Of a DNA stretch of 64,000 bases, positions 899-61,950 are shown in pieces. The stretch's first letter is position 1, and the number at the start of each line of letters is the position of its first letter. The stretch is taken from assembly GCA_008632985.1 (NCBI GenBank), contig QPGO01000205.1:1-64000 (forward strand), in the 5' to 3' direction. Origin of the DNA: Psammoneis japonica (Eukaryota). The position numbers and the translations under genes were made by a program. Below the pieces are notes generated by a model. That model did no database searches. It was not told the origin of the DNA and saw only the letters and a list, made by a program, of their open reading frames with translations.

Positions 899-1089
899 TT
901 CTTTCAACATCAAAACGAAGCAAGCAAGATTTCTGCACAGTAGAAACTGGCGTAAAGTCGCTGTTGAGTGGCAGCTTACACCTTAATTATACCCACAATA
1001 ATGGCGGATGGCGGCCCTGCCCGCCTGCTGTGTTTGTTTTGTGTCGCGTGTCGCGTTGGCTGGAGGGAGAGGAGCGGGTCAAAATAAAG

Positions 1090-11423: not shown

Positions 11424-14428
<3,005 letters not shown>

Positions 14429-19080: not shown

Positions 19081-19112
19081 GTCAGAGCTCGTAGTCTAGC
19101 TCGTTCGTTGAT

Positions 19113-40039: not shown

Positions 40040-42092
40040 GCGCGCCCACAAGAGACATGATGCACAGTTTTTTGGTCATCGCCTGGCAATTCCAACACCA
40101 TAGACCATGGACACTCCAATCATTTAATCAAACCTCGTGCAGCCACATTTCTTGTGCTGCAGGAACCTGTGGCGCTGAACAGTTGTCAAATGTAAAGTTT
40201 TCTCTGCCCCAGGCATGAATTCCTCAGATGAGGGTGGCAAACAAAACGACACGAGGGCTCTGGCGCTGCCGTCGAGGCGCTCGAGAGCAGGCTGACAAGG
40301 GCACACCCAAACCCCTGCAGCAGCAATCAAAAGGCTAAGGCTTGAGATGCCACAGCAGTCAACACTGTCAAATTTGCACCTGAGTTGTGGTGCATCTCTG
40401 TGTGCACCCTCTCGCGAGCTGGCTCTTCTTCTCTTTTTCTGCTCCCCCTCTTCTTTTGATGATCCTCGCCGATTTTTTGTGCCATCACAAAGTCAAAGGA
40501 AGGCTGCTTTTTCTCAGGAAGTGTTGGTTCAATGTCCACAAAGGGCAGCCAAATCCCTTGGAATGCACACAAGAGGAGTTGCAGCAGCAGCAGCAGCAGC
40601 TCTGTGAGTTTTTGTTTTGCTGCTGCTGTGAGAAAGCTCGCGCCTGCTGCTCTCCCCCCCTCCCACCAGCATCACAACTGGCAAACACCCAACAAATGTT
40701 CCTGTTTGCCTCAAAAAATGGCTTTCACTTCCTCAAGTTCTCATGCATGTGAAAAGAGCAGCTGTGTGTGCAGTGCCATGCACCACCCCCAAAAAATGTC
40801 TGACACCACACTGACACCTGCCTTGCTCCTCGTCACAATCACCATGAGTGACAGCTGCCAGAACATTGTGGACAGAAAGGTTGCATGCAGAGATGGACAA
40901 TGTGGTTGAGACAGTGCAGCACAGGACAGCAGCATTTGCTTTGTGTCACAGCCTGAAACAATGACGATGGGATGAGAGTGCTTGCCTGCAAGTTGCTCAG
41001 AGAGGTGAAGAGGAGTGTCAAAATCAGTCTCCAGTGAAGCACCATCTTCACCCCCTGCTCTCTTGACACATGAAAGCACGGAATCAAGAAGGGGGCTCAG
41101 GCACAACCAAACTCACTTGCAGCTGCCATGAACAGGATCTTGCGACGCTCTTGAGAGCAAAGCTCTTTTAAGATTTTTCGATGTTTGAGGTCTCCACATG
41201 AGTGCAGGTGGCCCTGTGGTGGCTGATGAAAAGCACTCAGATTTCCTTCTTGGGGATCTGGCAGCAAAATTTCCTTGAGCTGCCAAAGTCATTTTGCATC
41301 ATGCAGATGATCTTGAGCAGGAAAGACGAGCTTCATCATGGTGTCTGGCTGCATTGCTTCCCACAAAAATGATGGACATGCCCATTGAGCAAAGGACAGC
41401 AGGAGCTTGTCTTGCAACTGTGTGGCAGGGGAGCACTCAAGTCATTGTCATCAAACAAACAGTCAAGCTTGACAGCACTGGTGGCAAGCTGGGGGAGGTG
41501 TCAGCACCCTCTGAAAACAACGAGATCTTTTTCATGAGGTTTGATGCCCCCTCCATGACAAAGTGCAAAGAGGGTCTTTGTGAGCAAAACCTGGCAGCAA
41601 CTGCTGCACCTGTGCAAACTTGGCGATGAGATTGAGCACAGGGAACCACAACAGCAAGTGGGGCTTTGGCAGCAGTGTGCCCTCCTCTTGCAGAAACAGC
41701 AAACAGTGCTGTGGCTCACAACTTGTGCTGACCCCAGGATCTGCGCCAACAGCAGCTGCACTGCCCTTGGAGCCCTTCTTGTTGGGGCCACTGCTCTTGG
41801 CATTGTTTGCCTTCTGCCTGTCTGCCAGCTCTCTTTTGTTCTTTTTGGGTTGAAGAGCTTTGGGGGGGCAGGTTCTTTCCCAGCACCTGCGCAGCAGCAG
41901 CTCTGTGTGTGGCACTTGGACCACCAGCACCATGGCTCCTCTCTCGATGAAGTTGTCAGTGACAATGAACCTTCCTCACGACACAAGGCCCTGCGGATGC
42001 ATGAGTCACACTCTTCGTTGTTGTTGCAGACACATGATGATCTGCACATGACGTTGTGCGAATGTTCTTGGTGGCGTTTCATCTCGTCATCC
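40040..42092 (-). repeat. Degenerate copy of an unidentified multi-copy repeat (homologous to 51770-54480)
   Basis: Shared blocks cagttgtcaaatgYaaagtt, gcatgaattcctcaga, aaggcttgagatgYcacagcag and gagcact..gtcattgtcat; TA-depleted. Confidence 0.75.
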
Positions 42093-42284
42093 CGAGTGAA
42101 TTTGGATGGAGAAGTGAGAGAGGACAATGTTGCGATTGGTGACTGGTTGACATGTGTGAATCAAGTGGTGTTCTAACAACACTCTCACAATCTAATCAGG
42201 TTTGGGTTCGCATCAACAGTGTTGCGACTTTCCATCAGACGCAAGGTGTCGTGCTTGTTCTTTCATCACATTGAGATTCATTTG
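42093..42284 (+). repeat. 5' LTR
   Basis: Gap-free alignment with 48753-48944, 15 substitutions. Confidence 0.93.
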
Positions 42285-45200
42285 CTTCATCAGAGCCATG
42301 ACGAAAAAGACAGAACGAAATGGTTTCAAATGCAATCCGTCATGGACGATTGTTTGTTGTGTTGTTTGCATGGAACGTGCAGCTGTAGAAACGGTGCTGG
42401 ACTGCACGCGATGCATCAGAATTCGGACAGATGTGCACGAAGATGTGTCTCGTGTCACTTGTTGTGACATCCACAAAAACAGCTTGCAATGACAATGCTC
42501 GCAAAGACAGTCACTGTCCTCACACATGTGATGGGTGTGAGGGGACTGCGGTGTTGGGTGACATGCCCGAGCGTGTGCTCAACAATGTCAGTTGACATGA
42601 ACGACACAGGACTGATCACCCTGACGTCGGGTGGCCATGTGAACCCGTCATCACAACACAGAGAAAGTGTGGCCTCCATGACCATGCAGACTCACAGCCA
42701 TGTGTTCCCGGTGTGGGACCTTTGCACCCTTTCTTTATTGTGGGATGGCAGCAGCGGCAGCACCAGCAGCAGCACTTGCGGCATCAGCTGCGGCAGCTGA
42801 CGTTGACGCAGTTTTACAAGTTTGTGGTGTTGCTGACCAGAACGCAAGGGCGAGGTTGGTTTTCTGTGAAGGGTTCACGACTTTGGAAAACATCGCAGTG
42901 ATGGAGAGTGACCATGATGTGGAAGATGTGGCGCAAAGGGCATCTCATCGCATGGCGGCTGACGGACGTGTGACTCTCGGGACTGTCCAAATCAAGAACT
43001 TACAGGCATTGGTGTGGTGGTGCCAGGATTTGCTCAAACGGAATCAGGCATTGGTTGCGGCAAACTTTAATGTGGCAGCTGTGGCTGCAGCCCGAGATGG
43101 CAGACGTTGAAAAGGAGCGCACGGACTCGGACGCGTTGGTGAGCGGTCTTGTAAAGTTTGAGTCTGATGACTTTGATGTGTGCAAAGACGCTTTCTTGAA
43201 TCTCCTGGCACAGAAGTTTGGCATGTTGAAGGAGCCCCTTCGTCATGTTGCAAGGACGATGCCAGCTCCGGCTGCATTCACAGATGCTCAACAGCGGCGC
43301 ATGCGCCAGATGCCACTGAATGGTGCCGCATTTGATGAGGACAACCGCAACGTTTGTCGCATGTTGAAGGAATGCTTGGTCGCTGCAGCAGGTGGGCATG
43401 GATCGAACCGTGACACGACAGAAAATGGACGTGGAGCATTCAACGCATGGGTCGACCATTGCAACGGACAGGGCGAGTTGAGCAAGTGCATTCATCTGGC
43501 TATGGCCACTGTTGACACCTTGTTTTACAAGAAGGAAGGATCGCTCCCGTTTGAAAAGTTCAATGAGAAACTCACCAGTGCCTTTGCCACTTTGAACAAA
43601 TCACCGGATGACCGCAAATCTGAATGACAGAAAGTTGACATTCTTCTAAAAGGGATCAAAACAGATGACCCTCGTCTCATTGCAGCAACAGCTGTCATTG
43701 GCAGTCAGCACCCTCGTGACTTCGCGGGGGCATGTGCTCATTTCTCATCCGAAGTCTCTTGTTTGCATGCAGGTGCTCAGTTGGAAGCCCGGCGTCCTCG
43801 AAGCGCAAGATTTCTGAAATGAGCCGTGGTGGCGGTGGTGGCCGTGGCTTCTGTCGAGGTCATGGTCGCGGAGGAAGATTTGGACGTTGGGGTGGACGTG
43901 GACGTGGTGGTGGTCGCCAAGGTGGGGGTGGCAACTACACCACAATGATCAATGGAGTTGATGCATCCGATCCCACAAGAGCTCAGTCCTCAAGAATGGG
44001 AAAAGTTGCAGTTTGATGGAGGGATCAGCTGTGTTTTCCAAGCCCGCGAACGAATGGGACATGGACACGGTGGAGGCCGTGGGCCTCCCGCAGGTCGACA
44101 AGGACGTGATGGGGGCGGCAGGCATGCAGCCGAAACCCAAGTTTGTCAAGATGGCCAAGGCCAAACCCAACAACAGGATCAGGAGCAAAGAGCAGTGGGC
44201 GTGGTTGCGGCACTGACCATGATCGCGGTGGACGAAATGGATGCGCCTTTGGTCGGGGAGCCTGTGATGGTTCCACCTGACTTCTTGGGGTGGCAACAGC
44301 TGCTGGAGCATTGGCGCATTTGGCACACTTGTCGTTTTTGCTTGTGTTGCTCTTCTTGCTGTTGACCAAACCCCACCCAACATCTCGTTTCAAAGAAAAG
44401 GCGACAAAGAGGCGCATTGCTGTGACATCAAAACGTGTGATCCGATCAACGAGTTCCGCACAGATGACAAATTTGACGACACCCGGGTTCATTGCTCGAA
44501 ATGAATGTGATGCTCACGCGGACACTTGTTGCGCTGGAGCGAACTGGAAGCTATGGAGATGACAAATGAAGTGTGCAAAGTGCATCCATTTTTGGACTCT
44601 TGTGAGCCGATCAAACAGATTCCTGTGGCACGTTGTTGCACGGCATGGACAGATCCAGAAACGACTCGTGAATGTTTGCTGGTTGGTGACCAAATGCTCT
44701 GGTTTGGAACCAACATGGAACATTCGCTTTTGAACCCTAACCAACTTCGTGCAACAACACACCCGTACACGACAACCCTTGCGACACTCGAAACGGATTT
44801 GGCATTGAAGCTGATGAAGCTTTCATCCCTTTCAACACCACGGGGACAATTGTGTCTTTCAAGTCTCGTGTTCCGAACGGATTGGGAAGTGCAGAACTTG
44901 CCGGTTGTGCCATTGACAGGTGACGCATGGGATCCAGCACAGACAGATGTGGGCTTGCCGGAGCGCACTAGAGAGCAGGCGGAGATGCGTGCTGTTCGAT
45001 CATTGACCTCTGGCATGTGACAAGAACAGGTCTCGGAATTAAGGAGCGAGAAGGCGAAGTCCCAAGCAGCACGCTGGGGCGAGGTCGAAATGCAACTGTC
45101 ATCCATGTCCCCTGTCTGTCAACTTCAATCGTTTTGTGACCGGCTTGTCAGCTCAGTCAATGTGGCTTGCACGTGTCGTGACGATGTGGATGAAAAGCAG

Positions 45201-46420
45201 AGGGCAATCAAAGAGCTGCACAGCAAGGATCGGCACTCGAAAGTTGATGCTGAAGAGTTGGCTCGAAAATGGAGTGTCAGTTTAGAAACGGCAAAAGACA
45301 CCCTAAATGTGACCACTCAGTGCGGTGCACGAACGGCGACCCAGCCGATGTCACGAAGAGTGAGGGTGGATCACCTCGACTTGCATCAGAAGCGTCTGAA
45401 AGGAACATGGTTTGTGGACACTCTGATGTCAAAGGTGAAGTCCTTGCTTGGCAACACGTGTGCCAATGTTCATGCTCAGGGCAAATTCGTGAAGGTTGTG
45501 CCGATGACCGCAAGGTCGGAGGCAGGTTTGTCTCTCGTTGAATTCACAGACAACGAGGGTGCACCAGAATGTCTCATGTCGGATGGGGCAGGAGAGTTCA
45601 CTGGAAAGAGCACCGAGTTTGCAAGGCACGCACGACGCACGAGAATGCAGTTAAGAACATCGGAGCAGGGTCGGAAGAACCAGAATCAGGCGGCGGAACG
45701 CGAAATTGGTTTCTTGGCCAAGCATGGCGGCTGCAAATGACAAAGAAGAAGGTGCCAAGACGATCTGGGATTTGGTCTCGTTCATGAGTCGGATAGTGTT
45801 GCGCATGGCAAGAGGCAGAGACAGAGGACCGGACATGAAGAGGTCACCGGACAGACACCAGAAAGGCGAGCATTTGGACTTTGGTTTCTGGACATGTGTG
45901 GTGGTGGGACAGGCCCAACAAGCCGAGCCCTCGAAGGCTTGGACGGTGGCTTGGTGTCTCACACAAAGTTGGCTCCGATGTGTGCTGTTGGGTTGTCAAT
46001 GAAAGCGGCAAGATTGTCTCCAAAACATCTGTCGAGCACGTGACACAGGCTGACATGGTGCAACCAGACATTCGCGTTGAGATTGACAACTTTAATGAGC
46101 AGCTGGAAAAGCGATTGGATGACACTGACTTTGTCTCACAGGGCGATGAAGCAGCACCTGCATTCGTGTTGGACGATTTTGCAATTGACGGCAACCCTGG
46201 TGTTGAACATGAGGGCGGCGTCATGCCTGAGGACGAGGAACATGGCGACATGCTGCTGCCCGACGAACGACTGGACGATGATGACGAGCAGGCAATTGAT
46301 CAATGCCTGGGAATGGAACTCATGTTTGACATTGGAACCGACGGTGAATGACGCGGTGTTGTAACGAAACGTGCAAGAGGACAGGATGGGCATCCAATTG
46401 GGACTGGGCATCAAAACCCA

Positions 46421-48560
46421 TTGTTTGACACTGGCGAATGCGAAGTGGAACATGCCGACGGCACCACAGATGAGCACACAGCCAATGTAATTGCCAAGAA
46501 CATGTTCGCTCAGGTCGACAGCAAAGGCAACCAGCACTCCATCTTACACGAAATGCAGGACCACGAGAGGAGTGACGATGCAGTGTTGGTTGCTGACGGC
46601 ACCGTACGAACCACTGACGGGAAGGAGTTGAAGAAAATCACGACAAAAGGATGGAAACTGTTGGTCGGATGGAAGGATGGCAGCTCATCTTGGGTCAAAC
46701 TCAAAGATCTGAAGGACTCTAACCCAATTGAAGTTGCTGAGCATGCTGTTGTGAACAGGTTGACTGAGGAACCTGCCTTTGCTTGGTGGGTCACGCATGT
46801 CCTGCGCAAACGGAATCACATCATGTCCAAGGTTAAGAAGAAGTGCTGGCGCACGACTCACAAGTTTGGCACCCGATTGCCCAAGTCAACGGAGGACGCT
46901 TTGCAGACAGACCAGGAAATGGGGACAGACCGTTGGGCTCGTGCAATCAACAAGGAGATGACAAAAGCAAAGGTGGCATGGCGCGAGCATGAGGCTGAAA
47001 CCCCTCAAGTTGTCCAGGAAGGCAAGAGCACAACTTTGTGTGGTTGTCAGGAGATCAGGTGCCACATGGCATTTGACGTTAAAATGGATTTCACCAGAAA
47101 GGCAAGGTTTGTAGCTGGCGGCCACATGACAGAGGCTCCAGCATCAATCACTTGTTCTGGCATGGTTTCTAGAGACAGTGTGCGACTTGGATTCTTGCTG
47201 GCAGCTTTGAATGGAATCAACATTGCAGCGATTGATCTGGAGAATGCTCATCTCAACGCACCGTGCGCAGAGAAGATGTGGTTCGAAGGCGGAAAGGAAT
47301 GCGGCGAGCATGAAGGGAAGGTGCTTGTTGTCACTCGGGCATCACATGGCTTGAAGAGCTCGGGACACTCTTGGAGGTCCGCACTGTCATCGGTCCTACG
47401 TGACTCAGGCTTTGAATCGACGAGAGCGGATCCAGACGTTCACTTGCGTGTGGCGACTCGTGAAGATGGGCACGAGCATTGTGAAATGCTTTTGGTCTGT
47501 GTTGATGACACACTGATCATTTCCCATCAAGGGAAGTCCATTGTCACTGCAACGGGTGAACACTGTGCCATGAAGCCCGGCAGCAAAGGAGAGCCAGAGG
47601 TTCATCTTGGAGCTAACGTCGAGAAGGTTCAGACTCAAGATGGGTGCACAATCTGGGCGAGTTCACCGAGGTCACATGTCAAATCGGCAATTAAGACTGT
47701 GGAAGGTCTGTTGGATGAAGATGGCAATGGAGAGGTTCTGAAGAACAGCGCAAAGGATCCACTGCCCCCGAAGCACAAACCGGAGCTGGACGTGACAGAC
47801 GAGTTAGGCCCCGACTTGGTGGACAGGCACTTGCAGCTGACAGGGATTTGTCACTGGGCGATCGAGTTGGGTCCTGTCGACATCTTGCATGAGGTTTCAA
47901 TCCTGTCTCAATGTCAAGCTAATCCGAGGAAAGGACACCTTGAAGCATTGTGTCATGTGTTTGCGCATGTGAAGAAACACCAGAACGTTGGACGCATTGG
48001 ATTCGATCCGAAGGAACCGGTGGTTGATGAGTCTGTTTTCAATTCGAACGCGGACTGGACCGAGTTTTACGGGGACGTTGAGGAGGAACTGCCACCACGG
48101 GCACCAAAGCCTTGTGGCAACCCAGCAAACATCCATGCATTTGTTGACGCTAACCATGCAGGGAACGTCGTTGCTCGCAGGTCGCACAGTGGAGTTCTGA
48201 TGTTTGTCAATGACGCGCCAGTGACATGGTTCAGCAAGCGGCAGAACACGGTGGAATCGGCAACGTTTGGAAGTGAATTGGTTGCGATGCAGATTTGCAA
48301 GGAGTTGATTGTTGCTTTGCGTTGCAAGCTTCGTATGTTTGGAGTTCCTCTTGAAGGACCGGCAAGCATCTTTTGTGACAACCGCAGTGTTGTGAAGAAT
48401 GTGAGTGTGCCTGAGTCGGTTTTGCACAAGAAGCACAATGCCATCAACTGCCATGTTGTGTGAGAAGTGGTCGCAGCGGGAATCATTCATGTTGGCAAGG
48501 AGGACACGGAAACAAACTTGGCAGATCTGCTTGCGAAAATGGTTGCAGGAGAGCGACGAT
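46421..48560 (+). pseudogene. Copia pol RT-RNase H region, inactivated
   Basis: 680-aa ORF with RT and RNase H motifs and essentially no Tyr; stop at 48461 (probable CGA->TGA). Confidence 0.92.
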
Positions 48561-48752
48561 GGAAGCTTTGCTCCTGTGTCTTTTGGCAATGTCCCGACAC
48601 CAAGGCCAGACACCTGTGGCTTGCGCCCACGTGCCTCGGCCTCCCAAGCCAGCATGTCTGGTGGTTTAATTTGGGTTTTGTGGTTTACCTCTCTGTGAGA
48701 GGACGTTGCATGTTTGGATGAATCGGCACCGTCATTGCCGTTTCGCGGGGAC

Positions 48753-48944
48753 CGAGTGAATTTGGATGGAGAAGCAAGAGAGGACAATGTTGCGATGGGT
48801 GACTGGTTGACATATATGAATCGAGTGGTGTTCTAACAACACTCTCACAATCTAATCAGGTTTAGGTTCGCATTAACAGTGTTACGACTTTCCATTAGAC
48901 GTAAGGTGTCGTGCTTGTTCTTTCGTTACATTGAGATTTATTCG
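48753..48944 (+). repeat. 3' LTR
   Basis: Follows the PPT and is followed by the TSD atcc (48945-48948); distal part retains TA. Confidence 0.93.
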
Positions 48945-49086
48945 ATCCAATCAGTCACGAATGGAGAGCAAGCGCGAACTCGTAAACTCGAGTCGTGCGG
49001 ACGGATGAGGAGTCGTCGTTCATCGTCGTTGGTCGCGTTCACATAATGTTGGTTGACTGCTGTGAAGCACTGCACGGCAAATCAAC

Positions 49087-50599: not shown

Positions 50600-53500
50600 A
50601 CCTGAACGATCACAGCAGTTCTGTGCCGCAGTTGGCACGCCCGCTGTGCAGCAGCAGGCTGTCCTCCTCCTTTGCGTTTGTGCCCTCCGTCCAATCTTCT
50701 GGTTGCGCTGAAGAACTTTGGGACAGCAGTTGCCAGGAGAGCAAAGCTGGGTTCGCTGTGCTGTGCCAAAGCAGGGGGGGGGGGCACACTTGCAAGGTGG
50801 GGGGCAAGCTTCCTCCAGAGAGTTTCTTCTTCTGTTGTTGTTGTTCCAAGTGCCTCCATGGTGATTTTCTCCTGGTGGGTGGTGGGTCTCAATGGTCTCG
50901 TTTCGTGGCTCTCATTGTTTGTTATTTTGGGCCACACAACAATCTCTGATCAAAGTTGGGGGCTTTTGCCCCAGTGGCTCAATGGCCTGCCTTGGCTCTT
51001 TGTGGTGGCTTGCACTTTTCTGCACCAGATGGTGCTGAGTTCACCTGCATGCTTTCAAATCCAGGCTTGATGCAGAATCTCCCAACCCACCATGGCACCT
51101 TTTTCCATCAATGACATTGATCTGTTCCCACCACAGTGTCACCATGGCTGACAATGTGCGCTTGAAAAAATGAAAGTGCCAAGAACAGAGTGGGCTTTTC
51201 TGGGCTTGAAGCAGTCAGGAAGTGCAAACAGGAAGTTGTTGGCAGCAACACGCCATGTGCGTTGGCACAAAAATCACACATGCAGAAAATTCATAAAGAA
51301 AAATGTTGAAATGCAGGGTTCAAGCCAATTTTTTTCTTTCCCGTGCTCCTCCTCTTGGTGACAAAGCCTCAAGGAATTTTCTCTAAAAAAAAATTGGCAC
51401 TTTGCATTGTTGCTTTTATGTGAGCAACATGATTTGGCACATCTCATGTCCAAAGGTCTGTTTTCAAAGTTTCGTTGACACTTCCGCAGTGATGCCACAG
51501 CATGATGAAAAATTTTCAAACATGGAGTTAAGGTGTGCGCAAAGGACATTGTTGTGTTTGTCATCAAAAAGCAAGCTCACAAAGTGTCAACTGCTGTGAC
51601 CCAAATTGACTCCTTGAGGTCATGGCTCATCATTTGCAAAGCATGTGAAAAGCACAATGAATTGATTTTCTGCACATGAGTTTGCACCAGAAATTGGCCC
51701 AAACCAAAAATTTCAAGCTTGTGTCCCCTGCACATGGCTTGTGGGTGTGGGAGAAAAATGGTTGAACAATTCAGTTGTCAAATGCAAAGTTCCCCCCAAG
51801 CATGAATTCCTCAGAGATGCAGATCAGGTGTTGAACAAAAAGACAGGGCTGGTGTCATCACACATCACACACCTCTGAGCAATCCAGTGTGGGTGGGCAC
51901 AAAGTTGCCAGCTTCTTGCTGCTCACAAAAAATGCTGCTCTTTTGCTGCCACAGTGCAGTGCACCTGAAACCACATGACCAGCAGCAACCATGAGGCCAA
52001 GGCTTGAGATGTCACAGCAGCCACAAACACACAGCCGCTCAGTCTGTGCCTTTTGCTGCTTCATGATGCAAGTGGAGATAAACAAGTTGTCTTTGCTGCA
52101 CACTTTCATCCCCTTGCCTTTCTTTTTTTCTCCTCATGACAAGCCACTTTTGTGCTGCTGCCACAAAGCTAAAAGATTTTTTTCTTGGAGAAGAGTTGGC
52201 TGGCTGGGTGTCTTGTGTGGAGCAGTTTTTGAGAAAACAGGAGAAGCACCAGCAGCTCCAAATCCCTGAGCTGGAAAGTGCACAATGAGGGAGAGTTGTG
52301 GAACAAGCCAAGTCTTTTTGCTGTCTGCCAAGAAAGCTCCCCCACACCCCAGCACAACTTTTGCAAAAACCCTGCTGGCACTCCCCCTGCATCAAGAATG
52401 GCTGCAGCACATCTAAAAATGGCTGCAGGCTTGCCGAGGGAGTGCAGAAGTCCATTTCCCATGGAACAGAGCACACTGAGCCCATGTGGACTGACGGATC
52501 TTCTTGTTCATCCGATGGACACACAGTTGTCAGCCATGGGGCTGCATCACCTTTTTTGCTTGCTCTGATGTTGGCTGGGACACACGTCACCAAAAAGACA
52601 GCAGGCCACTCAAGTGGCTCCACTCATTTTGAAGGCAATGCTGAGTTCTCCAAACCAAGTGCCGCTGTCTTGGCCACAATTTATTGTGCAGGATGCAGTG
52701 CAAACTCCATGTGCATGTCTCTGTTTTTCTGGAAGGCTTGCTCAATGATCTTGAGGTCATAAATTTTGAGCATTTTTGTTGCCACTTTTCTGCTGATTGT
52801 CACAAGTGCATTGTGCACCAACCTTTGACATGCTTGCATGATCAACCAGCTCTTGCATCACTCCTCCATTGATGCAAAGCCACCAACATCAACAGTGTCA
52901 CAGCACAGGCAGGATTTGAGGCTGCAGCATCAGCAAAACAATGCTGGCCTCCTTTGGGCACCACACACTGAGAGTCATTTTGATGTGATGCACCCAGCTT
53001 CTTTTTGCATGTGTGTGGCTGTGTGCGACAGCCAAGTGGTGTGTGGCTGTGCACTGACACTGCTGACATGCTGGAGTTTGACACTTGTTTCAGACTGGCT
53101 TTGAGAGTTTTGATGTTCCACTCAGCTTCTTTTTGCATTTGTGGCTCTGTGCCACAGCCAATTGGTGTGCAGCCATGCACTGATGCTGCTGACATGCTGG
53201 AGTTTGGCAATTGTTTCAGACCAACTTTGATGTGGGCAAAAGCAGCAGCAGCCAGCACTGAGGGAAGACACTTGCGTGCAAGTTGCTCAAGGTGAGGAGA
53301 TCCATCAAAATCAGTCCCCGGCAAAGATGCCACCTTGTTTGCCTTCTTGCTTGCTCTCCCACAACACATGGAAGCACAGCAAACCAAGAGACCTCCTGAG
53401 CAGGTGGCCAAACTTGCAACCACTCCATGAAAAGCAACTGGCACTGCTTGGCAAAGCTCTCAAGAATTTTTCAATGCTCGAGGATGTGCAAGTGGCCCCA

Positions 53501-54480
53501 TGATGGCTGCAAAAAAGGCAGCACACAGGACCACTCATTGAACCCAGCAAAAAAAGTTTCCTTTGACTGCCAAGCTTCTTTTGCCCACAGATGATCTTGA
53601 GATGGAAGGAGGAGCTGCACTGCAGATTGTTTTGCCTTGTGCAAATGATGCACATCATGCCCCTGCTGAACAAACCAGGAGCCTGTCTTGAGCTGTGAGG
53701 AGAGCACTTGGGTCATTGTCATTGCACAAATGGTTGAGTTTGGCAGCACCAGCAAACTGGGGGAAGTGTTGGCACCCCAAACAATGAGAGCTTGTCAAAA
53801 CCAAAACTGCCTCATGAGAGGATTGACAACACCCACCAACAAGAGTGTGCTCTCTGGAGATGAGGTGCAAAGTGGTTCTTCTCAAGCAAAGCCTGGTGGT
53901 GACTTTTGCACCTGTGCAAATTTGGAAATGTGCACGTGCAGGAAAAAACAACAAGCAGGACTTTGGAGCATCAGCCACCCTTGCAGAGAGAATGCACAGC
54001 AAACAGTGCCAAAGCTCACCTCTGGCACTTGCCAGGATCTGTGCCCACAATGGCTGCAGCACTGTCCTTGGAGCACTTGTTGGGGCAGCTGTCCTCAGCA
54101 TTGTGTGCCTCTGCACCACACTTGGTGTGCCCGCTGCCCTCTGTCCAACCCTCTTGTTGTGCTGAAGAGCTGTGGGACAACAGCTGCTGGGAGCACAAGT
54201 TGTGTTCACTGGGCTGTGCCAAAGTGTGGGGTGCCTCCGTGCCCATGCTTCAGTGGATCCCAATGATGCTGTTTTATGTCCCTCAGTGTCTTGCCTCTTT
54301 TTTTTTTTGCCACACAGCAACATCTGATCAAAAGCAGGGGCTTTTGCCGCAGCGGCTCAAAATGGCCGGCACCTTTGTTCTTGAGCTTTGGCAGCTTTTG
54401 TGTCTGGTTCCTGATGAGGTCTCCTCTTTCCTGTTGCACCAAGCGCGGAACCCGAAGCTCTTGCTGAAGCGGTCGGGAAG
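50600..54480 (-). repeat. TpA/CpG-depleted island F containing two copies of the unidentified repeat (50600-51070 resembles 54100-54480)
   Basis: Example: gctgaagaactttgggacagcag...ctgtgccaaag versus gctgaagagctgtgggacaacag...ctgtgccaaag. Confidence 0.78.
52969..53230. repeat. Approximately 130-bp tandem duplication
   Basis: cagcttctttttgcat...ctgctgacatgctggagtttg...tgtttcagac occurs twice. Confidence 0.85.
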
Positions 54481-54682
54481 AGAATAACGGAAAGTTGTAG
54501 GCAGGGACGGGTGCAAGAGAGAAAAGTTCTAAGAGTACCTGTAGCTACTTGTTACCGGGGGTATTATATGATATGCAATATGCAGTACTAGCTAGCTTCT
54601 TAGAGAAAATCATTTGGCTGTTACCTGCTGGCTAGCTGATTCTCAGAGCTCGACAATGAAACAGCAATCCACGGTGAAGTTA

Positions 54683-55546: not shown

Positions 55547-55869
55547 GGCGAAAACGACTTTTTGTTAAGAGAAGGAACGCACCATGCACTTCAAATGTGT
55601 CAAAACAGCCTGGTCGTACCTTGCTTTCTTGAACCAAAACTTGACGCCAAAGATATATCGAATGTTCATTTTCCCGCTTCCTGCGCGCCATCCGCGCCGT
55701 CACGTGTTCCGCCAATCCCGTTTCTGCAGCTATGGGGCCCAACGTCATGCTTCCACGAGTAATCACAACCCCCCATTTTTTACCAAAATGCAACTCCAGC
55801 CGACTAATGTTTGTCTAACAAGAAGTTCCCAACAAGTTTTGGGGTCGCAAGTGTTAGGTTTGGTTGGCA

Positions 55870-58800
55870 ATAGAGACGTCACCAAAAATCGTCCCGCCCC
55901 GGTGCTTTCACGTGCAACAAAGGCACCCCACAAAAAGTTGGCTCCATTTCCAAATGCCCAACACCATGAACAATGCATGCCTGGTGCATTCTTGCAAGAC
56001 ACCAGTTCAAGGCATTCACACAACGAGCTGATGGATGGCAAGACGATTGGAGTTTCTGAATTTTTTTGTGCTGGAAACTTCGTGCGCACTGCACGCATCA
56101 TCGCTGAAAAACGGCGACATGACGGTGGTGCATTGTCACAATGACAGCAATGACAGCAACGTGTCCCAGAGTCTTTTGTCATCACAGACATTTGGTTCAT
56201 CAAGTTCAAGAATGCATCCAGTCATGACAGTCCCAGGGAGCAATCTCCGCTCGAAAGCAAAACATTGTCGCACCAATGCCGAGCTCTGTTTCCGACCTGC
56301 CGCTGTTGTGCATTCATCATTGAACAGTTGAGACTTCGTCAGGGGGACTTTCTTTGCATGTTCATGTTCTAAACAGTGTGATCTGTCATCATGACAAGTG
56401 CCCATTGCAAAGTCGTCCTGCATGAGCTTGAGAAAAATGTCGTCATCATCGTTGGCGTCGACAGCAATTTGTCGCGCAAATCACAAAAAATGCACGACTG
56501 TTGTCTGTCTGACATTGTGCATTGCACCACTGTGTGCTCATTGTGCGCATGCCTTAAAGAGCAGGAGACCAACAATGCTTGCACCTCAGGCATTTTGTGG
56601 CTCTAGCCGGGGTCAAAGTCCAGCCAGTTCTTCCAAAAAATTCGAGTGGAGCGGGTCATGCGGGATTCAAGACACATGACTCGGGGTGCAATGGACCCTT
56701 TCTCAACAAAGAGATGGCCAATGACATCAACACAAAGCACATTTTATGGCAACAGTCTTCTTTGAAAGTCATCATTGACATTGTGACAACTGTGTTTGAC
56801 CTGTTTCATGTTTCAAATGGACGAAGCAATCCATGAAAACACATTTGCAAGCCACACTTTTCCATTTTCAGAATTGACAATTGCGTCTCTGCCAACAATC
56901 TAGCAAACACACAAGCAAGGGGGCACTTCCATCACCTGACTTTGTTCTTCCACAGGAGAGTGTCATCAATGGGTGACTTTTTCAACGTTGTTTGACTGCT
57001 TCTTTTGAACAGTGCGCCAACTTCACTCTGCATTTTCACTCCAAAATCCACCCCATGCCTCACCCTCTCCCACTCAAAAACACTGGCTGATCGCATTGCA
57101 GTTGCTTCATCAAAGTCTTGAAAAATGGTCCTCTTGTCATTGGCGCTGCTGAAACGGGTTTGACGATGGGAGTGCAACATTGGATTCGTCGATGAGCTCA
57201 CACGACAATTGACGCTGTGAAAATTGGCTGCATCTGCATGACAGTTGGGTGAGACAACAAGTGGCAAGACTTTGGCACAACAAGAGCTCCGCTTCAATTG
57301 TGCGTCACTTGCCTTTGCATGTCCGCTGGCTTTTGCTCTCAGTGGGTGTCAAAAATCCGGCAAATGAGTGGTTGATGAAGACTCGGTGCGTGACATGGCG
57401 TCATGAATGACTGAATTGTCATGTTTGTCAATGGCTCCCCACAAAATCAAAATCATGGAGAACACACTTAGATTCCTGTCCAACAGATGCCAATTGATTG
57501 CATGCCAAATGCGTTTTTGCAGAGTCAAAGGTTTGGACAACTTTCTTGGCATTGCAATCATCACCATCATTGGCACGAGTTCTGATCAAATTCCCTGCAA
57601 CAGCACCGCGGTGACAGTCTGCATGCTCATCAGGAGTGCGGGTTGGGACCCAAAGCAGCACGGGCTTGGTTTGAAACAACACACTTTTGGCTGGCTTTGC
57701 TTTTCTCAGACTGCTTTGACGCAACAACCCTGACACCACGCAAGCCTCACAGCAGACCCACAATGAGCATCTCAGACCTTGCTTGTGAGCACCAGTTGTG
57801 CAACAGCATCAAAGAAGTGCAGGCTGTGCAGAGCTTGATCTTGCGCCGGCAGGTTCTGTGAGCACCCCACCCCACAACAAAAGAAAGAGGAGCACACAGC
57901 AGCCCTGACAAAAACCACTTCAACATGCACTTGTGTTTGAACAACCATGGTCATGTTCTGGCCAGCCATCAAGAGTCGACAAGCAACACACACAACACAG
58001 AGCATCAACAACAAAAGGGCAACACACGCAAGATTTGAGCTTGCATCAATGAAGACAATGACCTTGAAAGAAGACTTGTGATTTGGAGCAAGACAACATG
58101 CCTGGCTGAGTGGCAAAAACACCAGCTGCACACACCACAGCTGCCAGTGTCGGAGAGCACTGTGTGGTGGCAAGCAGTGGCAGCAGCATCTGCTGTCTGC
58201 TGTCTCTGTGCACTGAGGAGTGCATCTGCTGTCAGGGTGTGTTGTGGCAAGCAGCAAGAGCAGTGCATTGATCTGAGGCTGGCAAAAGTGGCTCTGGCTC
58301 CTGATCCATGCTTGCATCATGGGAGCACATTTTGATGCCAGATCCCAAAGGCAAGGACACATGAGCTGGATTGCTGGCAATGGCAGCACTTCCACCCTGC
58401 TTTGCCTGTGCAAAAGCTCCAAAAAAGGAGCCCCAAGTGGCCAAGGTTGCAAACACCACATGTGGGAGATCCCAAAAATTGGGCAAGTCACTCAAGAAGT
58501 GTGTCAGCTTTTAAGAAGTGTGTCGACTTTTAAGCTCTCTCTGCTTTTGCACAAGCAGCCTTGTGCAGTGCCTTGCAAGCAAGTCATCGAGCTTCTCTTT
58601 GTTTGATCTTGAAGAGTTGGTTTCCACTGTGGTGTTGTGTCAATGGTCTTGAGCAAGCAAGAATTTCATGCCAGACTGCAGTGCTTCTTGAAATCCTCGG
58701 TGCACTTGTGTTTCTCAAATGAAGTGCAGCCCCCTTCATTGTGCAGCCACACTTCTGGCTGCTTTGCATGATGCGTTTGCTCTGCTCCTGCAGCTGCTCT

Positions 58801-61800
58801 TTGGATGGTGCACAAGCAGGATTTTTTCCAAAGATGCTTGGAAACAACTTTCACGCCTGCACACATTTCACAACAAAAAGCATGGAGTGCAACATGCAAG
58901 TCCCAAGAAAAACAACAAACTCCTTCAACTTTGATCATTTTGACAATCAAAAGGCAAGTGCACACAAAAAAACAAAAGTTTTGGGTGCATTTGCCTTTCA
59001 ATTTGGGGAAAAAATCATTTTGAAGGAGTTCATTGTGCCAAATGAAAAAATGGCCCAATGATGGATCGCGCACATCTGTGCATCACCCAGAGCTGGAACA
59101 GGCCCAGGAGACTTGTGCACATGCAAAAACCTTTTTTTATGAGATTTTTGATGTTCGTTTCCATTGAACACAAAAAACACATTTGGGAGGAAACTGCACA
59201 TGCCCAATCAAATTGTTTGACTCTCACACTTCACTGTGGTGAAATTTTAGTCACAGACACTGGGGCAGGTTGAGTCCTCTGGTGGTTTGCAGTGACCAAA
59301 GACTTGCTCCAGACTCAGGTGCACACATGCACACAAAAAATGCTCGTTTTTGCATGAAATGCATGGTCCCAACTTGTGGCGCCATTCTCGTTGAACGTTG
59401 CAAGATGATGATTTTCAAATGTGTGATGGCATGGGCACATGCAGAACGGTCTTGTGCGTGTGCCCATGTCAATTTTTTTTTAGGGCGCATTCAATTTTTG
59501 GATGTTGAATGGCACCGTAAGATGTGGGCTTGATTTTTCACCAGCTTCAATGAAATTTTTATTTGCCTGTGTTGAGCTTTTGTTGCAATTGAGTGACAAG
59601 CTTCAATGGCTGCATGGGGGTCAACACTGGTGGAGTGTCTGCTGACACAAGGCACCAAAATGGAGGATGAAAGAAAGCCACGACACTTGTGCGGCAAGCA
59701 GCTCCCATTCTGATGGCAACCCATTTCATTTCTTGCACCTCCATTCACTGGGCAAGGACTGCATCTCTGAAAGCAGAAAAGGTGGTGAGTCACAATCCTC
59801 TTCTTCCTTTCTCACCCCTCATTTCTCTTGCAATGTCACATGCTCTCTGGTGCTGCCACCCCATGCGCAGCAGATGAAGTGTCCAGAGTGCAGCAAGAGC
59901 AGCCTTCAATTGGTGCTCTTTGTCATTGTTGGCATCCAGAGGGAGTGCTTGTGTCATTTGGCCATCAACTGGAGCTTTGTTTTTGACTTGGCAATGCCAT
60001 TGCCACACCATTCAAAGTGGCAACATCTCTGCTGGAGCCAGCAGCCAAAGTGGGTGCATTCCCCAAAGACAAAACAGGAGCAGCGTCTTGCCTTGAGGTC
60101 TGTTTGTTCTGCCCAGTGCTGGATTTGTGCCTGTGCGGCCAATGCCTTTGCAGCAAGGCATGTGTTTGTTCATTGCTTTGACACTCTTTTGTGTCAGCGT
60201 CTGCAGGTCAGCACAAGCCATTGGACTGATTCAACAAATTGCAAAAAAAAGTTGTGCAGCTGCTTTGTGAGTCAAGGAGCAAACATCAAGAATTTGATTC
60301 AATCCCCCCCTGCGTGTTTTCCCAAAGAAATGCATTTGTCAATTTCAACCTTTAAGACTGAATTAAATCACAAAAAAATTTTGATGGCAAATTTGGCATC
60401 ATTTTTTATGAAATTGGATGGTGCACAAAAATTCTTGTTGTCAGATGCAAAAAAGGGGCAAGTGTGTGCCACCCAAGTCAGGAACAAGTTCAAACATGCT
60501 GACAGCAGAATCCTTTTCTGTGGCAACATCATGGCCAGGTGGTCCAAGGCACATGTGCAGCCCATTTGACCATGGTGGCAGTTGCTGCCAGGAAAAGGAA
60601 AAAACACATGTGCACAACACATCTGGAGCTTCATCTGTCCTGCATTTTGCATGGCATCAGCACAGTTGCGAGAGCAGCTGGATCTAATCCAGAACAATGG
60701 GAGCAGCTTGGCTCAGCCAGCTTGAGAGTGCAGCATGCCACAGAGAAAGCCAAGGTGGCACATTTTGTGCAGGGCACCAGCACAGCTGTGAGAGTGTTCC
60801 CACAAATGAGGACCCATCAGCTGGGTCTGATCAAGAACAATGGGGGGCAGCTTGGCTCAAACAGTGTGGGTGCACAGCATGGAGAAAGCCAAGGTGATCA
60901 AAGTTGAAAGGAACCATGTGCAGGATGGCAGAGTGGAGCCATGGACCTCTCCAGTTCATCAGTGTTCAACTGTTTAAGCTGCTTCTCCACAGCCTCTTTG
61001 AAGCTGGCATGCAGGGTGCAGAACGCTTTGCTGCTTCGGCAAGAATCTCCCTTGCCAGTCATTTTGCAGTGATGTTCTGAAGCAATCCTGAAGACAACTT
61101 CTCCTGAGAAAATTTCCTTGAATGCATGATCCCTCATTTTGATCACACAGGAGAGGTGCTGCAGCAACCTGCAGTCTTGCAGCAGTTGTGAGAGGAAACT
61201 CTGGATCAATGTTGTTGCTTTTGTCCGGCAACTGCAACAACAGAATCTTGTGCAACAAGTGCTTTTTGAATTGCCAAGATGGCCTCATCAGCCTCGTCCA
61301 TTTTGTGGTCACTGGCTGGATGATGCAAGAAGAAAATCTTTTCTCGAGGCAATGCATGTGTGACAGGTCTCACACCTGCCATGTGACAAAACATTTTTGC
61401 AAAGAGACCAAAACAAAGAAAGCGCAACAACAAGTGGCAAACATCAACAGGAGCTTGCCCTTGCACTGCACTCATCTCTTCAGAGGTGAGAACCATTGTG
61501 CAAGTTCTGCAGAGATGCACACTCACAACTGGAAGAGTGCTTTGCGCCTTGCTCTCAATCATCAACTGTCGGTTGCCGCTGGAGTGCTTGTGGACAATGC
61601 CTTTCAGGAATGCATGACAGCTTTTTGGCATCATGCCAAAAAGGATCAATGTAGATTGGCTTGCTGTCAGGAAGAGGGTGCCATTTGTGATTGTTCGTGC
61701 GCCCGCTTTTCCAGCTCTTGCCACGCTTCTCATGAAAACAATGAAGGCAGCTCCTCTTGGCTGGCAGACGGGCTCTGCCTCTCATCCCACTTTTGGACTT

Positions 61801-61950
61801 CCTTTTTTGGCTTGAGAATGGCAACACGCTGCTCATCCATCACCTTGTTTTCATTCCATCGCTTCTGCTTCTCTTTCGGCATGGTTGCGACTTGCTCAAC
61901 GCGAAGATGAAATGTGCTTCTACATGCATGACATTGTGGCATGTAACACA
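55870..61950. repeat. TpA/CpG-depleted degenerate repeat island G
   Basis: Composition; fragmented coding-like remnants not assignable by eye. Boundaries approximate. Confidence 0.75.

What the first reader, a model, noticed from the sequence alone, without database searches (positions are those of the whole stretch)
46421..48463. Systematic Tyr->His/Cys recoding of conserved RT/RNase H motifs fixes the direction of mutation
Seen versus canonical Copia motifs: SITCS (TYS), ENAHLNA (NAYLNA), ASHGLK (ALYGLK), HCEMLLVCVDD (YYE..LxYVDD, catalytic, 47498-47509), EVHLG (YLG), LCHVFAHVKKH, LRCKLRMFG (RYKL), AINCH (YH). TAY->CAY gives His and TAY->TGY gives Cys. Inference: TA is ancestral and the process inactivates TEs by stripping Tyr (and altering TTA/ATA/GTA codons) rather than by creating stops.
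Basis: partly seen in the sequence, partly recalled or inferred. Interest (0 to 1): 0.8.

Follow-up and report, generated by a model that had tools for sequence, protein, structure and literature searches.

The report
TA-erasing hypermutation of diatom retrotransposon
A dead copia-type jumping gene in a diatom genome has had nearly every TA dinucleotide turned into CA or TG after it inserted, which replaced almost all its tyrosines by histidine or cysteine; this mutation pattern has so far been described only in one 2026 preprint on an unrelated alga.

Summary
ORF 46352-48463 encodes the RT/RNase H part of a Ty1/copia-type pol. It has 1 Tyr in 703 residues; 120 relatives average 3.89%. Of 22 Tyr-majority columns the window has Cys in 10, His in 10, Phe in 1, Tyr in 1.

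DNA of 23 relatives gives the same direction. Of 17 conserved TA sites, 9 are CA, 6 TG, 1 TT and 1 TA in the window; every other dinucleotide is kept at 62-100% apart from a single CG site.

The LTR pair shows the change happened in the genome after insertion. The 5' LTR keeps 2 TA, the 3' LTR 11, and the mutated tract ends inside the 3' LTR. Both strands are hit equally.

Seven TA-poor segments cover 31.6 of 64 kb. Host genes, including a 4-kb duplicated pair, are untouched. Surviving TAs are mostly YTAR; RTAY is almost gone.

The host is a diatom. The same TpA>CpA/TpG hypermutation was measured directly in Bigelowiella natans (bioRxiv 10.64898/2026.01.13.699255). This is therefore a new member of a very recently described kind, in a second lineage. 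The enzyme is unknown.

The parts
42092..42289 (+). 5' LTR, hypermutated (2 TA left)
   Evidence: Direct repeat of 48752-48949, 91% identical; alignment; TA count.
42290..44370 (+). Leader and presumed gag region of the element, TA-poor, no recognisable domain
   Evidence: Lies between the 5' LTR and the start of the pol match. ORFs here gave no Pfam hit above cut-off.
44371..48586 (+). Degenerate pol polyprotein (protease/integrase region, RT, RNase H), read in three frames
   Evidence: tblastn of intact relative P0002 (1418 aa) covers residues 5-1418 in frames 1, 3 and 2, with frame changes near 44553 and 45710-45863. In-frame TGA at 46349 and 48461.
46352..48463 (+). The ORF of the finding: RT/RNase H part, 703 codons, 1 Tyr
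   Evidence: Pfam RVT_2 scores 47.5 bits here against 63.8 and 63.3 in intact relatives.
47498..47509 (+). Catalytic YVDD box now reading CVDD (TGT GTT GAT GAC)
   Evidence: Column 383: Tyr in 115 of 120 relatives, Cys in the window.
48068..48070 (+). The only Tyr codon left (TAC)
   Evidence: Column 573: Tyr in 120 of 120 relatives and in the window.
48752..48949 (+). 3' LTR, largely unmutated (11 TA). The hypermutated tract ends inside it, between about 48776 and 48813
   Evidence: There are 9 sites with TA here where the 5' LTR has TG (4) or CA (5), and none the other way. TA positions become dense from 48813 on.
40101..42091 (.). TA-poor DNA directly upstream, continuous with the element; unidentified, shares a diverged repeat with 53553-54114
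   Evidence: Segmentation. Only 1 TA lies between 40336 and 42174. blastn 41266-41817 against 53553-54114 gives 65% identity.
1001..8400 (.). TA-poor segment (TA o/e 0.07, CG 0.27)
   Evidence: no Pfam hit above cut-off.
17101..19100 (.). TA-poor segment (TA o/e 0.08, CG 0.38)
22301..24000 (.). TA-poor segment (TA o/e 0.07, CG 0.57)
   Evidence: 23136-23326 resembles 58918-59104 at 72%.
32701..34400 (.). TA-poor segment (TA o/e 0.11, CG 0.53)
50601..54500 (.). TA-poor segment (TA o/e 0.05, CG 0.16)
55801..62000 (.). TA-poor segment (TA o/e 0.06, CG 0.34)

Best explanation
The element is a multi-copy Ty1/copia-type (diatom CoDi-like) LTR retrotransposon. After it integrated, it underwent a DNA-level hypermutation that is restricted to a region of the chromosome. 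The process converts TpA to TpG or CpA (A:T>G:C) on either strand with equal probability. It runs several hundred times faster than background and goes nearly to saturation.

It acts on silenced repeat or foreign DNA domains, which make up about half of this window. It does not act on neighbouring host genes. Its edges are set by the domain, not by the element.

It prefers R-T-A-Y. Read per strand, that is an A preceded by T and followed by a pyrimidine. This makes the Tyr codon TAY an ideal target. It kills proteins by missense (Tyr>His/Cys, including YVDD>CVDD) and erases TAA/TAG stops.

Shown here: the signature, its direction, its timing after insertion, its strand symmetry, its regional limits and its flank bias.

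Inferred: that it is enzymatic, that it serves genome defence, and that it is the same process as the TpA hypermutation measured in Bigelowiella natans.

The chemistry is not shown. I rate deamination of adenine to hypoxanthine in double-stranded DNA as the most likely (about 0.4). Oxidation or modification of the thymine of TpA, which then mispairs with G, is the main alternative (about 0.25). A slower, separate CpG>TpG/CpA decay, of the kind usually ascribed to cytosine methylation, acts on the same domains.
For: Direction and specificity. Of 329 columns conserved at >=80%, the window differs at 54. These sort as TA>TG 14, TA>CA 13, CG>CA 9, other transition 1, transversion 8, multi-step 9. 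A>G changes have T before them in 14 of 15 cases; T>C changes have A after them in 13 of 13. In the DNA fate table, conserved TA is kept at 1 of 17 sites, while other dinucleotides are kept at 62-100%, apart from the single CG site.

After insertion, on DNA. The two LTRs (200 aligned columns) hold 2 against 11 TA. At 9 sites the 3' LTR has TA and the 5' LTR has TG or CA, with 0 the reverse. One site is TG against CA, three are CpG-type, and only 1 clear other difference lies outside the frayed last 7 columns.

Both strands. The split is 14:13, 301:289 and 4:5 in the LTR. CA and TG o/e are alike in all seven segments. There are no long one-strand runs: 13 runs against 15.5 expected, z -0.94.

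Regional limits. There are seven segments with TA o/e 0.05-0.11, against about 0.5 elsewhere. The tract ends inside the 3' LTR, about 130-300 bp from the WD40 gene. A 4-kb host gene pair, 88% identical, keeps TA o/e 0.52-0.54 and a ts:tv of 172:141.

Not a family trait. The 80 related loci from metagenomes have TA o/e 0.45-0.88, with none under 0.4; the element has 0.11.

The reads agree. Contigs of a public run hold the TA-less sequence (243 pieces >=99% alike, and a 233-nt piece with 0 differences). They show a multi-copy family: summed depth about 800-2380 against 55.6 in the flank. Copies differ by 463 transitions of 522 variant places, including paired CA<>TG differences.

Flank bias. TA survival relative to the relatives' elements is 0.26 for YTAR, 0.088 with one favourable flank and 0.01 for RTAY (chi-square 100.6, p 1.4e-22).

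Independent cases. P0261 has His or Cys at 14 of 17 Tyr columns, with different outcomes from the window at several shared columns. P0026 has lost only the first six.

Precedent. In B. natans mutation-accumulation lines sequenced by Illumina, 230 of 231 mutations in two integrated viral regions were A>G or T>C, and all of these fell on TpA. TpA-poor CDS there were enriched for RT and DDE domains (bioRxiv 10.64898/2026.01.13.699255, Results and Discussion read).
Against: No enzyme, base modification or chromatin mark could be examined, because no genome is held for this window.

The sequencing run that agrees with the window is probably the sample it was assembled from. Its platform is not on record, and it holds only 0.46 of the sampled words of the stretch. 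Only 40 of 522 variant places were shown, so copies that still carry TA could not be excluded or demonstrated.

The other six TA-poor segments gave 0 Pfam hits above cut-off among 128 ORFs. That they are transposons is inferred from two weak repeat matches and from composition.

The flank preference rests on which TAs survive. It could be partly shaped by new TAs arising from the abundant CA/TG.

The direct test of strand choice is only suggestive: YTAY gives TG:CA 10:3 and RTAR gives 1:3, Fisher p 0.10. In the LTR pair it went 2 for and 2 against by my reading.

CG>CA 9 against CG>TG 0 at conserved columns is unexplained. It may be ascertainment: C>T at third positions is silent, and the two TGA stops lie outside the ORF that was scored.
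Confidence: 0.8

Rival explanations
1. Homology-triggered process, a true RIP analogue. Repeated copies are recognised by pairing and mutated, with the opposite chemistry to fungal RIP.
For: The family is multi-copy. At least two other TA-poor segments share diverged repeats. Fungal RIP is the classical repeat-directed hypermutation (general knowledge; RIPCAL paper PMC2621366 seen only in the listing).
Against: The 3' LTR is a repeat of the 5' LTR and of every other copy, yet keeps 11 of about 12 TA. A 4-kb host duplication at 88% identity is untouched. In B. natans the main target is single-copy. P0026 is mutated only in its first part.
Confidence: 0.12
2. Editing before integration: ADAR-like A>I editing of the element's RNA, or deamination of its cDNA, fixed by reverse transcription.
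For: ADAR prefers U before the edited A, as the B. natans authors note. Edited retroelements are known in animals (PMC4866542, listing only).
Against: The two LTRs of one insertion differ at 10 TA-type sites. Both strands are hit equally. The TA-poor tract continues into non-element DNA upstream and stops inside the 3' LTR. Copies differ by CA against TG at the same site.
Confidence: 0.03
3. Base-calling or assembly artefact. A modified base at TpA (and 5mC at CpG) in silenced DNA is misread, so the real sequence still has TA.
For: Strand-specific miscalls at a palindromic site would also give about 50:50 CA and TG. The window differs from the run's contig by 6 letters and 6 gaps in 2 kb of single-copy flank, so the assembly is not letter-perfect against that run.
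Against: None of the 34 variant places within 42214-48875 that I checked, of the 40 shown, is a lone change back to TA. Variant kinds are balanced (C>T 123, G>A 109, A>G 111, T>C 120), not dominated by C>T and G>A. Contig pieces at word depth 31-66 reproduce the TA-less sequence. Two unnamed public proteins show the same Tyr loss. The B. natans mutations were called from Illumina reads.
Confidence: 0.04
4. Selected TA avoidance in a living element lineage, for example to escape a TA-directed nuclease or TA-targeting transposons.
For: TA deserts kept by selection are known in phages. An earlier scan note (e1-5856506) describes one, in an unrelated genome.
Against: The catalytic YVDD reads CVDD, and 20 of 22 conserved Tyr are replaced. 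There are two frame changes and two in-frame stops. The LTRs differ. The 80 related loci have normal TA.
Confidence: 0.01

Closest known systems
TpA hypermutation of integrated viral DNA in Bigelowiella natans (Mettrop et al., bioRxiv 10.64898/2026.01.13.699255)
   Same: Same signature: TpA>TpG and TpA>CpA only, on both strands, confined to foreign or silent regions, orders of magnitude above background. TpA-poor, CpA+TpG-rich clusters occur across the genome, and TpA-poor CDS are enriched in RT and DDE domains.
   Different: The host here is a diatom (stramenopile), not a chlorarachniophyte (Rhizaria). Here only the end state is seen, and it is nearly saturated (TA o/e 0.05-0.11, against 0.45 for their NCLDV region). 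The target is an LTR retrotransposon with datable LTRs. A flank preference (RTAY) and a boundary inside an LTR are seen here; the preprint's text has no passage on flanks. Its tables could not be read. The preprint does not mention diatoms, copia or tyrosine.
Repeat-induced point mutation (RIP) of Neurospora and other fungi
   Same: Dinucleotide-specific transition hypermutation that riddles transposons with missense changes and leaves sharply bounded blocks of skewed composition.
   Different: RIP is C>T, mainly at CpA, so it creates TpA and stop codons and lowers GC. This process destroys TpA and stops and raises GC. RIP is triggered by duplication, whereas here a repeated LTR and a duplicated host gene are spared. 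What I state about RIP is general knowledge plus the abstract lines.
ADAR, ADAT and APOBEC editing of retroelements and viruses in animals
   Same: Deaminase-type transitions with a neighbour preference, used against selfish nucleic acids. ADAR favours U before the edited A (as cited).
   Different: Those act on RNA or single-stranded cDNA before integration and leave a one-strand bias. Here the change comes after integration and is strand-symmetric.
5-hydroxymethyluracil in dinoflagellate DNA and its role in transposon silencing (PMC11572971; PMC11071213)
   Same: A thymine modification tied to transposon silencing in another SAR lineage. It offers a chemical route to T>C at TpA if the modified base mispairs.
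   Different: No mutation signature is claimed in what I saw (titles and first lines of abstracts only). That 5hmU favours TpA in dinoflagellates is recalled, not checked. No modification data exist for this window.
Diatom Ty1/copia elements (CoDi groups, Maumus et al. 2009, PMC2806351)
   Same: Copia-type RT, short LTRs and a diatom host. The closest named relatives are from Fragilaria crotonensis and Cyclotella cryptica.
   Different: That paper has no occurrence of 'RIP', 'dinucleotide' or 'point mutation' (find). Which CoDi group this element belongs to was not tested.

Membership tests
Ty1/copia LTR retrotransposon | Copia-type reverse transcriptase (Pfam RVT_2) | tested here: met
   PF07727 scores 47.5 bits against a cut-off of 31.6. 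There are 858 long relatives at E<=0.001.
Ty1/copia LTR retrotransposon | Flanking long terminal repeats | tested here: met
   42092-42289 and 48752-48949, 91% identical, 6660 bp apart. The target-site duplication and TG..CA ends were not resolved.
Ty1/copia LTR retrotransposon | Integrase upstream of RT (order PR-INT-RT-RH) | tested here: inconclusive
   About 700 residues of the relatives' polyprotein align upstream of the RT. Pfam finds no rve domain in the window or in intact relatives P0002 and P0117 at E<=1.
CoDi groups of diatoms | RT clusters with a named CoDi group | not tested
   No CoDi reference sequences were at hand. Only a diatom host and diatom relatives are shown.
TpA hypermutation as in B. 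natans | Changes are A>G/T>C confined to TpA | tested here: met
   27 of 28 single-step A>G or T>C changes at conserved columns are at TpA. Conserved TA becomes CA or TG at 15 of 17 sites. The LTR pair agrees.
TpA hypermutation as in B. natans | Confined to foreign or silent regions, rate far above background | tested here: met
   Seven bounded segments and normal host DNA. In the 5' LTR, 10 of about 12 TA sites changed, against about 1 of about 170 other sites across both LTRs (the ratio of several hundred is my arithmetic).
TpA hypermutation as in B. natans | Ongoing de novo mutation seen across generations | not testable with these tools
   This needs mutation-accumulation or pedigree sequencing of this diatom.
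TpA hypermutation as in B. natans | Same enzyme or pathway (proposed ADAT2-like deaminase) | not testable with these tools
   No genome is held for the window. The enzyme is unproven in B. natans too.
Fungal RIP | C>T at CpA, producing TpA excess | tested here: not met
   The direction is opposite: TA is lost and CA/TG gained.
Fungal RIP | Triggered by sequence duplication | tested here: not met
   The 3' LTR and the 4-kb duplicated LRR genes are spared. The 88% identity of the gene pair may lie under a threshold, so this is not a strict test.

The most novel reading that the evidence does not exclude
Diatoms and chlorarachniophytes share an old SAR-wide genome-defence system. A chromatin-domain-guided enzyme edits the palindromic site R-T-A-Y in double-stranded DNA, by adenine deamination or thymine modification, on either strand. 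It works as a mirror image of fungal RIP: it drives silenced transposons and viral insertions from AT to GC, erases tyrosines and stop codons, and stops sharply at the borders of active genes.
Probability: 0.35. Interest if true: 0.88.

Novelty: new member of a known kind. Interest (0 to 1): 0.74.

Why it matters
Directed A:T>G:C hypermutation of genomic DNA at TpA was unknown until a 2026 preprint on one rhizarian alga, and its enzyme is still unidentified.

Finding the same signature in a diatom, saturated over about half of a 64-kb window, has three consequences:
- The process is not a curiosity of one species.
- It gives a second genome for comparative searches for the enzyme, meaning genes shared by carriers and absent from diatoms without the signature.
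- It adds features a mechanism must explain: action after integration, equal use of both strands, an RTAY preference, a boundary less than 40 bp wide inside an LTR next to a gene, and independence from CpG decay.

There are practical consequences too. Such regions are full of long false ORFs in all six frames, because TAA and TAG are erased. Their proteins escape domain searches: 0 of 128 ORFs were recognised, and P0261 falls below the Pfam cut-off. LTR-divergence dating will overestimate ages unless TA and CG sites are masked.

Tried and rejected
- Whole-genome access: none is held. Other copies of the family, candidate deaminases and TET/JBP genes could not be searched.

- Earlier scan notes: nothing on this genome or this phenomenon.

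- Pfam on 128 ORFs from the other TA-poor segments: no hit above cut-off, so their nature stays open. Pfam finds no integrase even in intact relatives.

- Sequencing runs: no RNA holder is listed, so nothing can be said on expression. X2's 1428-nt contig matches the WD40 gene 49057-50484 almost exactly and X2 has next to nothing on the element, but X2 is not on record as RNA, so I draw no conclusion. X3 laid nothing.

- Read laying showed 40 of 522 variant places. Whether TA-bearing (intact) copies exist in the run is undecided.

- Origin of P0261 and P0026: unnamed ENA singletons. They may come from the same organism as the window, so they are independent elements but not proven independent hosts.

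- Strand-coordinated tracts: the runs test is not significant.

- Strand choice by flank: a trend only.

- Target-site duplication and exact LTR ends: not resolved.

- GC-biased gene conversion, UV damage and a genome-wide mutation bias were considered and rejected. The change is limited to one dinucleotide, is sharply bounded, and is absent from intergenic host DNA.

- Literature searches found no description in diatoms or other stramenopiles. Subscription journals are not covered, and the preprint's supplementary tables are closed. Its Table S2, which lists the mutations, could have tested the RTAY preference.
Full report
WHAT IS THERE

The finding lies in a 703-codon open frame (46352-48463, + strand). 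Its only Pfam match is the copia-type reverse transcriptase RVT_2, at 47.5 bits. A search of long proteins gave 858 relatives at E<=0.001. The best 120 are 50-65% identical over the whole ORF, 1241-1924 residues long, and some are named as reverse transcriptases of the diatom Fragilaria crotonensis.

An intact relative (P0002, 1418 aa) aligns over 44371-48586 in three frames, with frame changes near 44553 and 45710-45863. The same frame as the ORF continues on both sides across two TGA codons, at 46349 and 48461.

Direct repeats of about 200 bp, 91% identical, lie at 42092-42289 and 48752-48949. The object is therefore one complete but dead LTR retrotransposon of the Ty1/copia kind, about 6.9 kb long.

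A host gene in the window is a Cdc48-type AAA ATPase (11647-13299). It is 76-89% identical to proteins whose named members are all diatoms, among them Fistulifera, Cylindrotheca, Amphora, Seminavis, Cyclotella, Nitzschia and Epithemia. The genome is therefore a diatom's.

THE OBSERVATION

It is correct. The ORF has one Tyr in 703 residues, against 3.89% in the aligned parts of 120 relatives. His is 2.15-fold and Cys 2.58-fold enriched, Ile 0.62-fold.

Of 22 columns where Tyr is the majority residue, the window has TGY Cys in 10, CAY His in 10, Phe in 1 and Tyr in 1. In 20 of these columns at most 2 of about 120 relatives carry His or Cys.

The YVDD box reads CVDD at 47498-47509.

The effect is not limited to the given coordinates. 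Over the whole pol, the Tyr of the 20 closest relatives aligns to Cys 301, His 289, Phe 85 and Tyr 27 of 892 pairs.

DIRECTION AND SPECIFICITY

At 329 columns conserved in at least 80% of relatives, the window differs at 54:
- TA>TG explains 14.
- TA>CA explains 13.
- CG>CA explains 9.
- Any other single transition explains 1.
- A transversion explains 8.
- More than one step is needed at 9.

Beyond Tyr, the TA-type changes include ATA>ATG, ATA>ACA, GTA>GCA and TTA>TCA. They also include first-position A>G changes (S>G, T>A, N>D), each preceded by a codon ending in T.

I then fetched DNA of relatives from metagenomes (80 loci) and threaded 23 stop-free ones onto a codon alignment. Of 17 TA dinucleotides conserved in at least 70% of them, the window has CA at 9, TG at 6, TT at 1 and TA at 1. 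Every other conserved dinucleotide is kept at 62-100%, apart from the single CG site, which is CA. The lowest value, AT, loses sites only where it overlaps a TA.

The 80 loci have TA observed/expected 0.45-0.88 (median 0.64, none below 0.4). The element has 0.11. TA is thus ancestral, and its loss is not a trait of the family.

I ran it as a scoring exercise only. Against a profile of 119 relatives, the ORF scores 1094.8 bits, below all 119 (1154.2-1304.8, median 1249.7). Setting residues to the consensus gave:
- the 20 Tyr sites: 1167.4 bits;
- all 29 TA-type sites: 1192.0 bits;
- those plus 9 CpG-type sites: 1211.0 bits;
- 18 other differing sites, as a control: 1130.9 bits.

TA-type changes account for about 97 of the 155-bit deficit to the median. 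Two cautions apply. Any move to consensus raises such a score, and the relatives were the training set.

In Pfam, RVT_2 scores 63.8 and 63.3 bits in two intact relatives against 47.5 here.

WHEN AND WHERE IT HAPPENED

The two LTRs of one insertion are identical when it integrates; this is established knowledge of LTR retrotransposition. Here the 5' LTR has 2 TA and the 3' LTR 11.

At 9 sites the 3' LTR has TA where the 5' LTR has TG (4) or CA (5), and never the reverse. One site is TG against CA, three are CpG against TG/CA, and one is a transversion. Four more differences lie in the frayed last 7 columns.

So the changes arose in the chromosome after insertion. About 10 of 12 TA sites changed in the 5' LTR, against about 1 of 170 other sites in both LTRs together. 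By my arithmetic that is a several-hundred-fold excess.

TA positions show that the stripped tract runs some 25-60 bp into the 3' LTR and then stops. The last TA-derived difference is near 48775, and TAs are dense from 48813. This is about 130-300 bp from the start of a WD40-repeat host gene (49066-50469). Upstream, the tract continues past the 5' LTR to about 40100.

The borders are therefore those of a chromosomal domain, not of the element.

STRANDS

Outcomes are even: 14 TG to 13 CA, 301 Cys to 289 His, and 4 to 5 in the LTR. CA and TG are equally enriched in all segments.

Along the ORF the two outcomes are interleaved, with 13 runs against 15.5 expected and z -0.94. There is no sign of long one-strand tracts.

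Together with the LTR result, this rules out editing of the RNA or of minus-strand cDNA as the main source.

EXTENT

The same composition holds in seven segments that sum to 31.6 of the 64 kb. TA o/e is 0.05-0.11 and CA and TG are 1.4-1.8. The rest of the window has TA o/e about 0.4-0.7.

CpG depletion varies between segments (o/e 0.16-0.66) while TA loss is uniform. The copia element itself has CG o/e 0.78. TA loss thus saturates long before CpG decay, and the two are separable.

Some metagenomic relatives are CpG-poor (o/e 0.34-0.46) with normal TA.

A 4-kb pair of leucine-rich-repeat host genes, 88% identical, has TA o/e 0.52-0.54 and an ordinary spectrum of 172 transitions to 141 transversions.

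The other six segments could not be identified. None of 128 ORFs of 90 or more codons from the TA-poor patches outside the pol reaches a Pfam cut-off. Only two weak repeat matches link them.

READS

One public sample holds the stretch. Its contigs give word depth 55.6 on the single-copy flank and a summed 800-2380 on the element.

Of 1815 pieces laid, 243 were at least 99% alike, 430 were 95-99%, 704 were 90-95% and 438 were lower. Among 522 variant places, 463 were transitions.

Of the 34 shown places that I checked, many are window CA or TG against CG in other copies. Two are paired CA against TG. None is a lone reversion to TA.

This fits a family that amplified and was then mutated copy by copy. 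It speaks against a base-calling artefact. But the sample is probably the window's own source, its platform is not on record, and most variant places were not displayed.

FLANK PREFERENCE (NEW HERE)

The TA-poor patches keep 124 TAs in 29.2 kb, which is 4.2 per kb against 33.8 per kb elsewhere. These are mostly TTAA and CTAA/TTAG. ATAT is absent and ATAC/GTAT nearly so.

Against the 17,515 TA sites of the 80 related loci as baseline, survival is 0.26 for Y-TA-R, 0.088 with one purine-before or pyrimidine-after flank, and 0.01 for R-TA-Y (chi-square 100.6, p 1.4e-22). The three values are roughly multiplicative. That is what two independent half-sites would give, one per strand, each reading T-A-pyrimidine.

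A direct test of which strand is hit goes the predicted way but is weak. Y-TA-Y sites gave TG:CA 10:3, R-TA-R 1:3 and R-TA-Y 5:10, with Fisher p 0.10.

If this is real, the Tyr codon TAY is the preferred target itself, which explains why Tyr is stripped so completely.

OTHER CASES

Among 240 relatives from two searches, Tyr content is 2.7-4.8% except in two unnamed ENA proteins.

P0261 (684 aa, 0.29% Tyr, 59% identical to the ORF) has His or Cys at 14 of 17 Tyr columns. Its outcomes differ from the window's at several shared columns.

P0026 (1405 aa, 1.71% Tyr) has lost the first six Tyr columns and kept nearly all the rest. That is a partial tract.

WHAT IS KNOWN

Six full-text searches found one description of this signature: a 2026 preprint on the chlorarachniophyte Bigelowiella natans (10.64898/2026.01.13.699255). 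I read its abstract, Results, Discussion and some passages.

In mutation-accumulation lines, 231 of 302 nuclear mutations fell in two integrated viral regions. Of these, 230 were A>G or T>C, and all of those were on TpA. The rate was about 6e-7, three orders of magnitude above background, and the effect appeared in only some lines.

A set of 324 CDS almost free of TpA was enriched for RT and DDE domains. The authors propose an ADAT2-like DNA adenine deaminase, without proof.

The preprint does not mention diatoms, copia or tyrosine. Its text has no passage on flanking bases. The founding paper on diatom copia elements contains no mention of such mutation (find only).

VERDICT

The best explanation is post-integration, domain-limited, strand-symmetric TpA>CpA/TpG hypermutation of silenced repeat DNA. 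It is the same kind of process as in B. natans, now seen in a diatom and in a nearly saturated state.

It works like a mirror image of fungal RIP, but it fails RIP's defining features: chemistry, direction and, as far as tested, the duplication trigger.

The enzyme and the targeting signal are unknown. Adenine deamination in TpA is my first guess and thymine modification my second.

Noticed in passing
window 1001-8400, 17101-19100, 22301-24000, 32701-34400, 40101-48800, 50601-54500, 55801-62000: Because TAA and TAG are erased (6.7 against 32.1 per kb, both strands), TA-poor segments carry many long ORFs in all six frames: 5.13 ORFs of >=90 codons per kb against 3.15 outside. This is a trap for gene callers, and none of the 128 scanned (TA-poor patches outside the pol) hits Pfam above cut-off.
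   Followed up: partly
window 28145-32154 and 34742-38704: A roughly 4-kb tandem-like duplication of leucine-rich-repeat genes, 88% identical, with normal TA content and an ordinary substitution spectrum. A TA-poor segment (32701-34400) lies between the two copies.
   Followed up: partly
window 46349-46351 and 48461-48463: Both in-frame stops of the pol are TGA at columns where relatives have Arg (43 of 119 and 118 of 119). This fits CGA>TGA by CpG decay rather than the TA process.
   Followed up: yes
window 46352-48463: At conserved columns, CpG-type changes are all CG>CA (9) and none CG>TG. This may be an ascertainment effect of codon position, or a strand bias of the CpG process. It is unexplained.
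   Followed up: no
window 41266-41817 vs 53553-54114; 23136-23326 vs 58918-59104: Weak similarities (65% and 72%) link separate TA-poor segments. This suggests old copies of unidentified repeat families.
   Followed up: no
window 49057-50484: One contig of run X2 (1428 nt, 1 difference) matches the WD40-repeat gene end to end, while X2 has almost nothing on the element. It looks transcript-like, but the run is not on record as RNA.
   Followed up: no
window 48968-51000: The single-copy flank differs from the run's contig by 6 substitutions and 6 gaps in about 2 kb. The cause could be allelic variation, a different isolate, or residual assembly errors.
   Followed up: no
proteins P0261 and P0026 (unnamed ENA records): Two further copia-type polyproteins with the same Tyr>His/Cys pattern, one complete and one confined to the N-terminal part. 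P0261 falls below the Pfam RVT_2 cut-off (22.6 bits).
   Followed up: partly
loci L058, L062, L063, L067, L069, L076 (metagenome contigs): Related copia elements with strong CpG depletion (o/e 0.34-0.46) and CA/TG excess but normal TA. This is CpG decay without TA loss, in other organisms.
   Followed up: no
window 11647-13299: A Cdc48-type AAA ATPase gene (CDC48_N plus AAA domains), 89% identical to its best diatom transcript match. It was used only to place the host among diatoms.
   Followed up: partly
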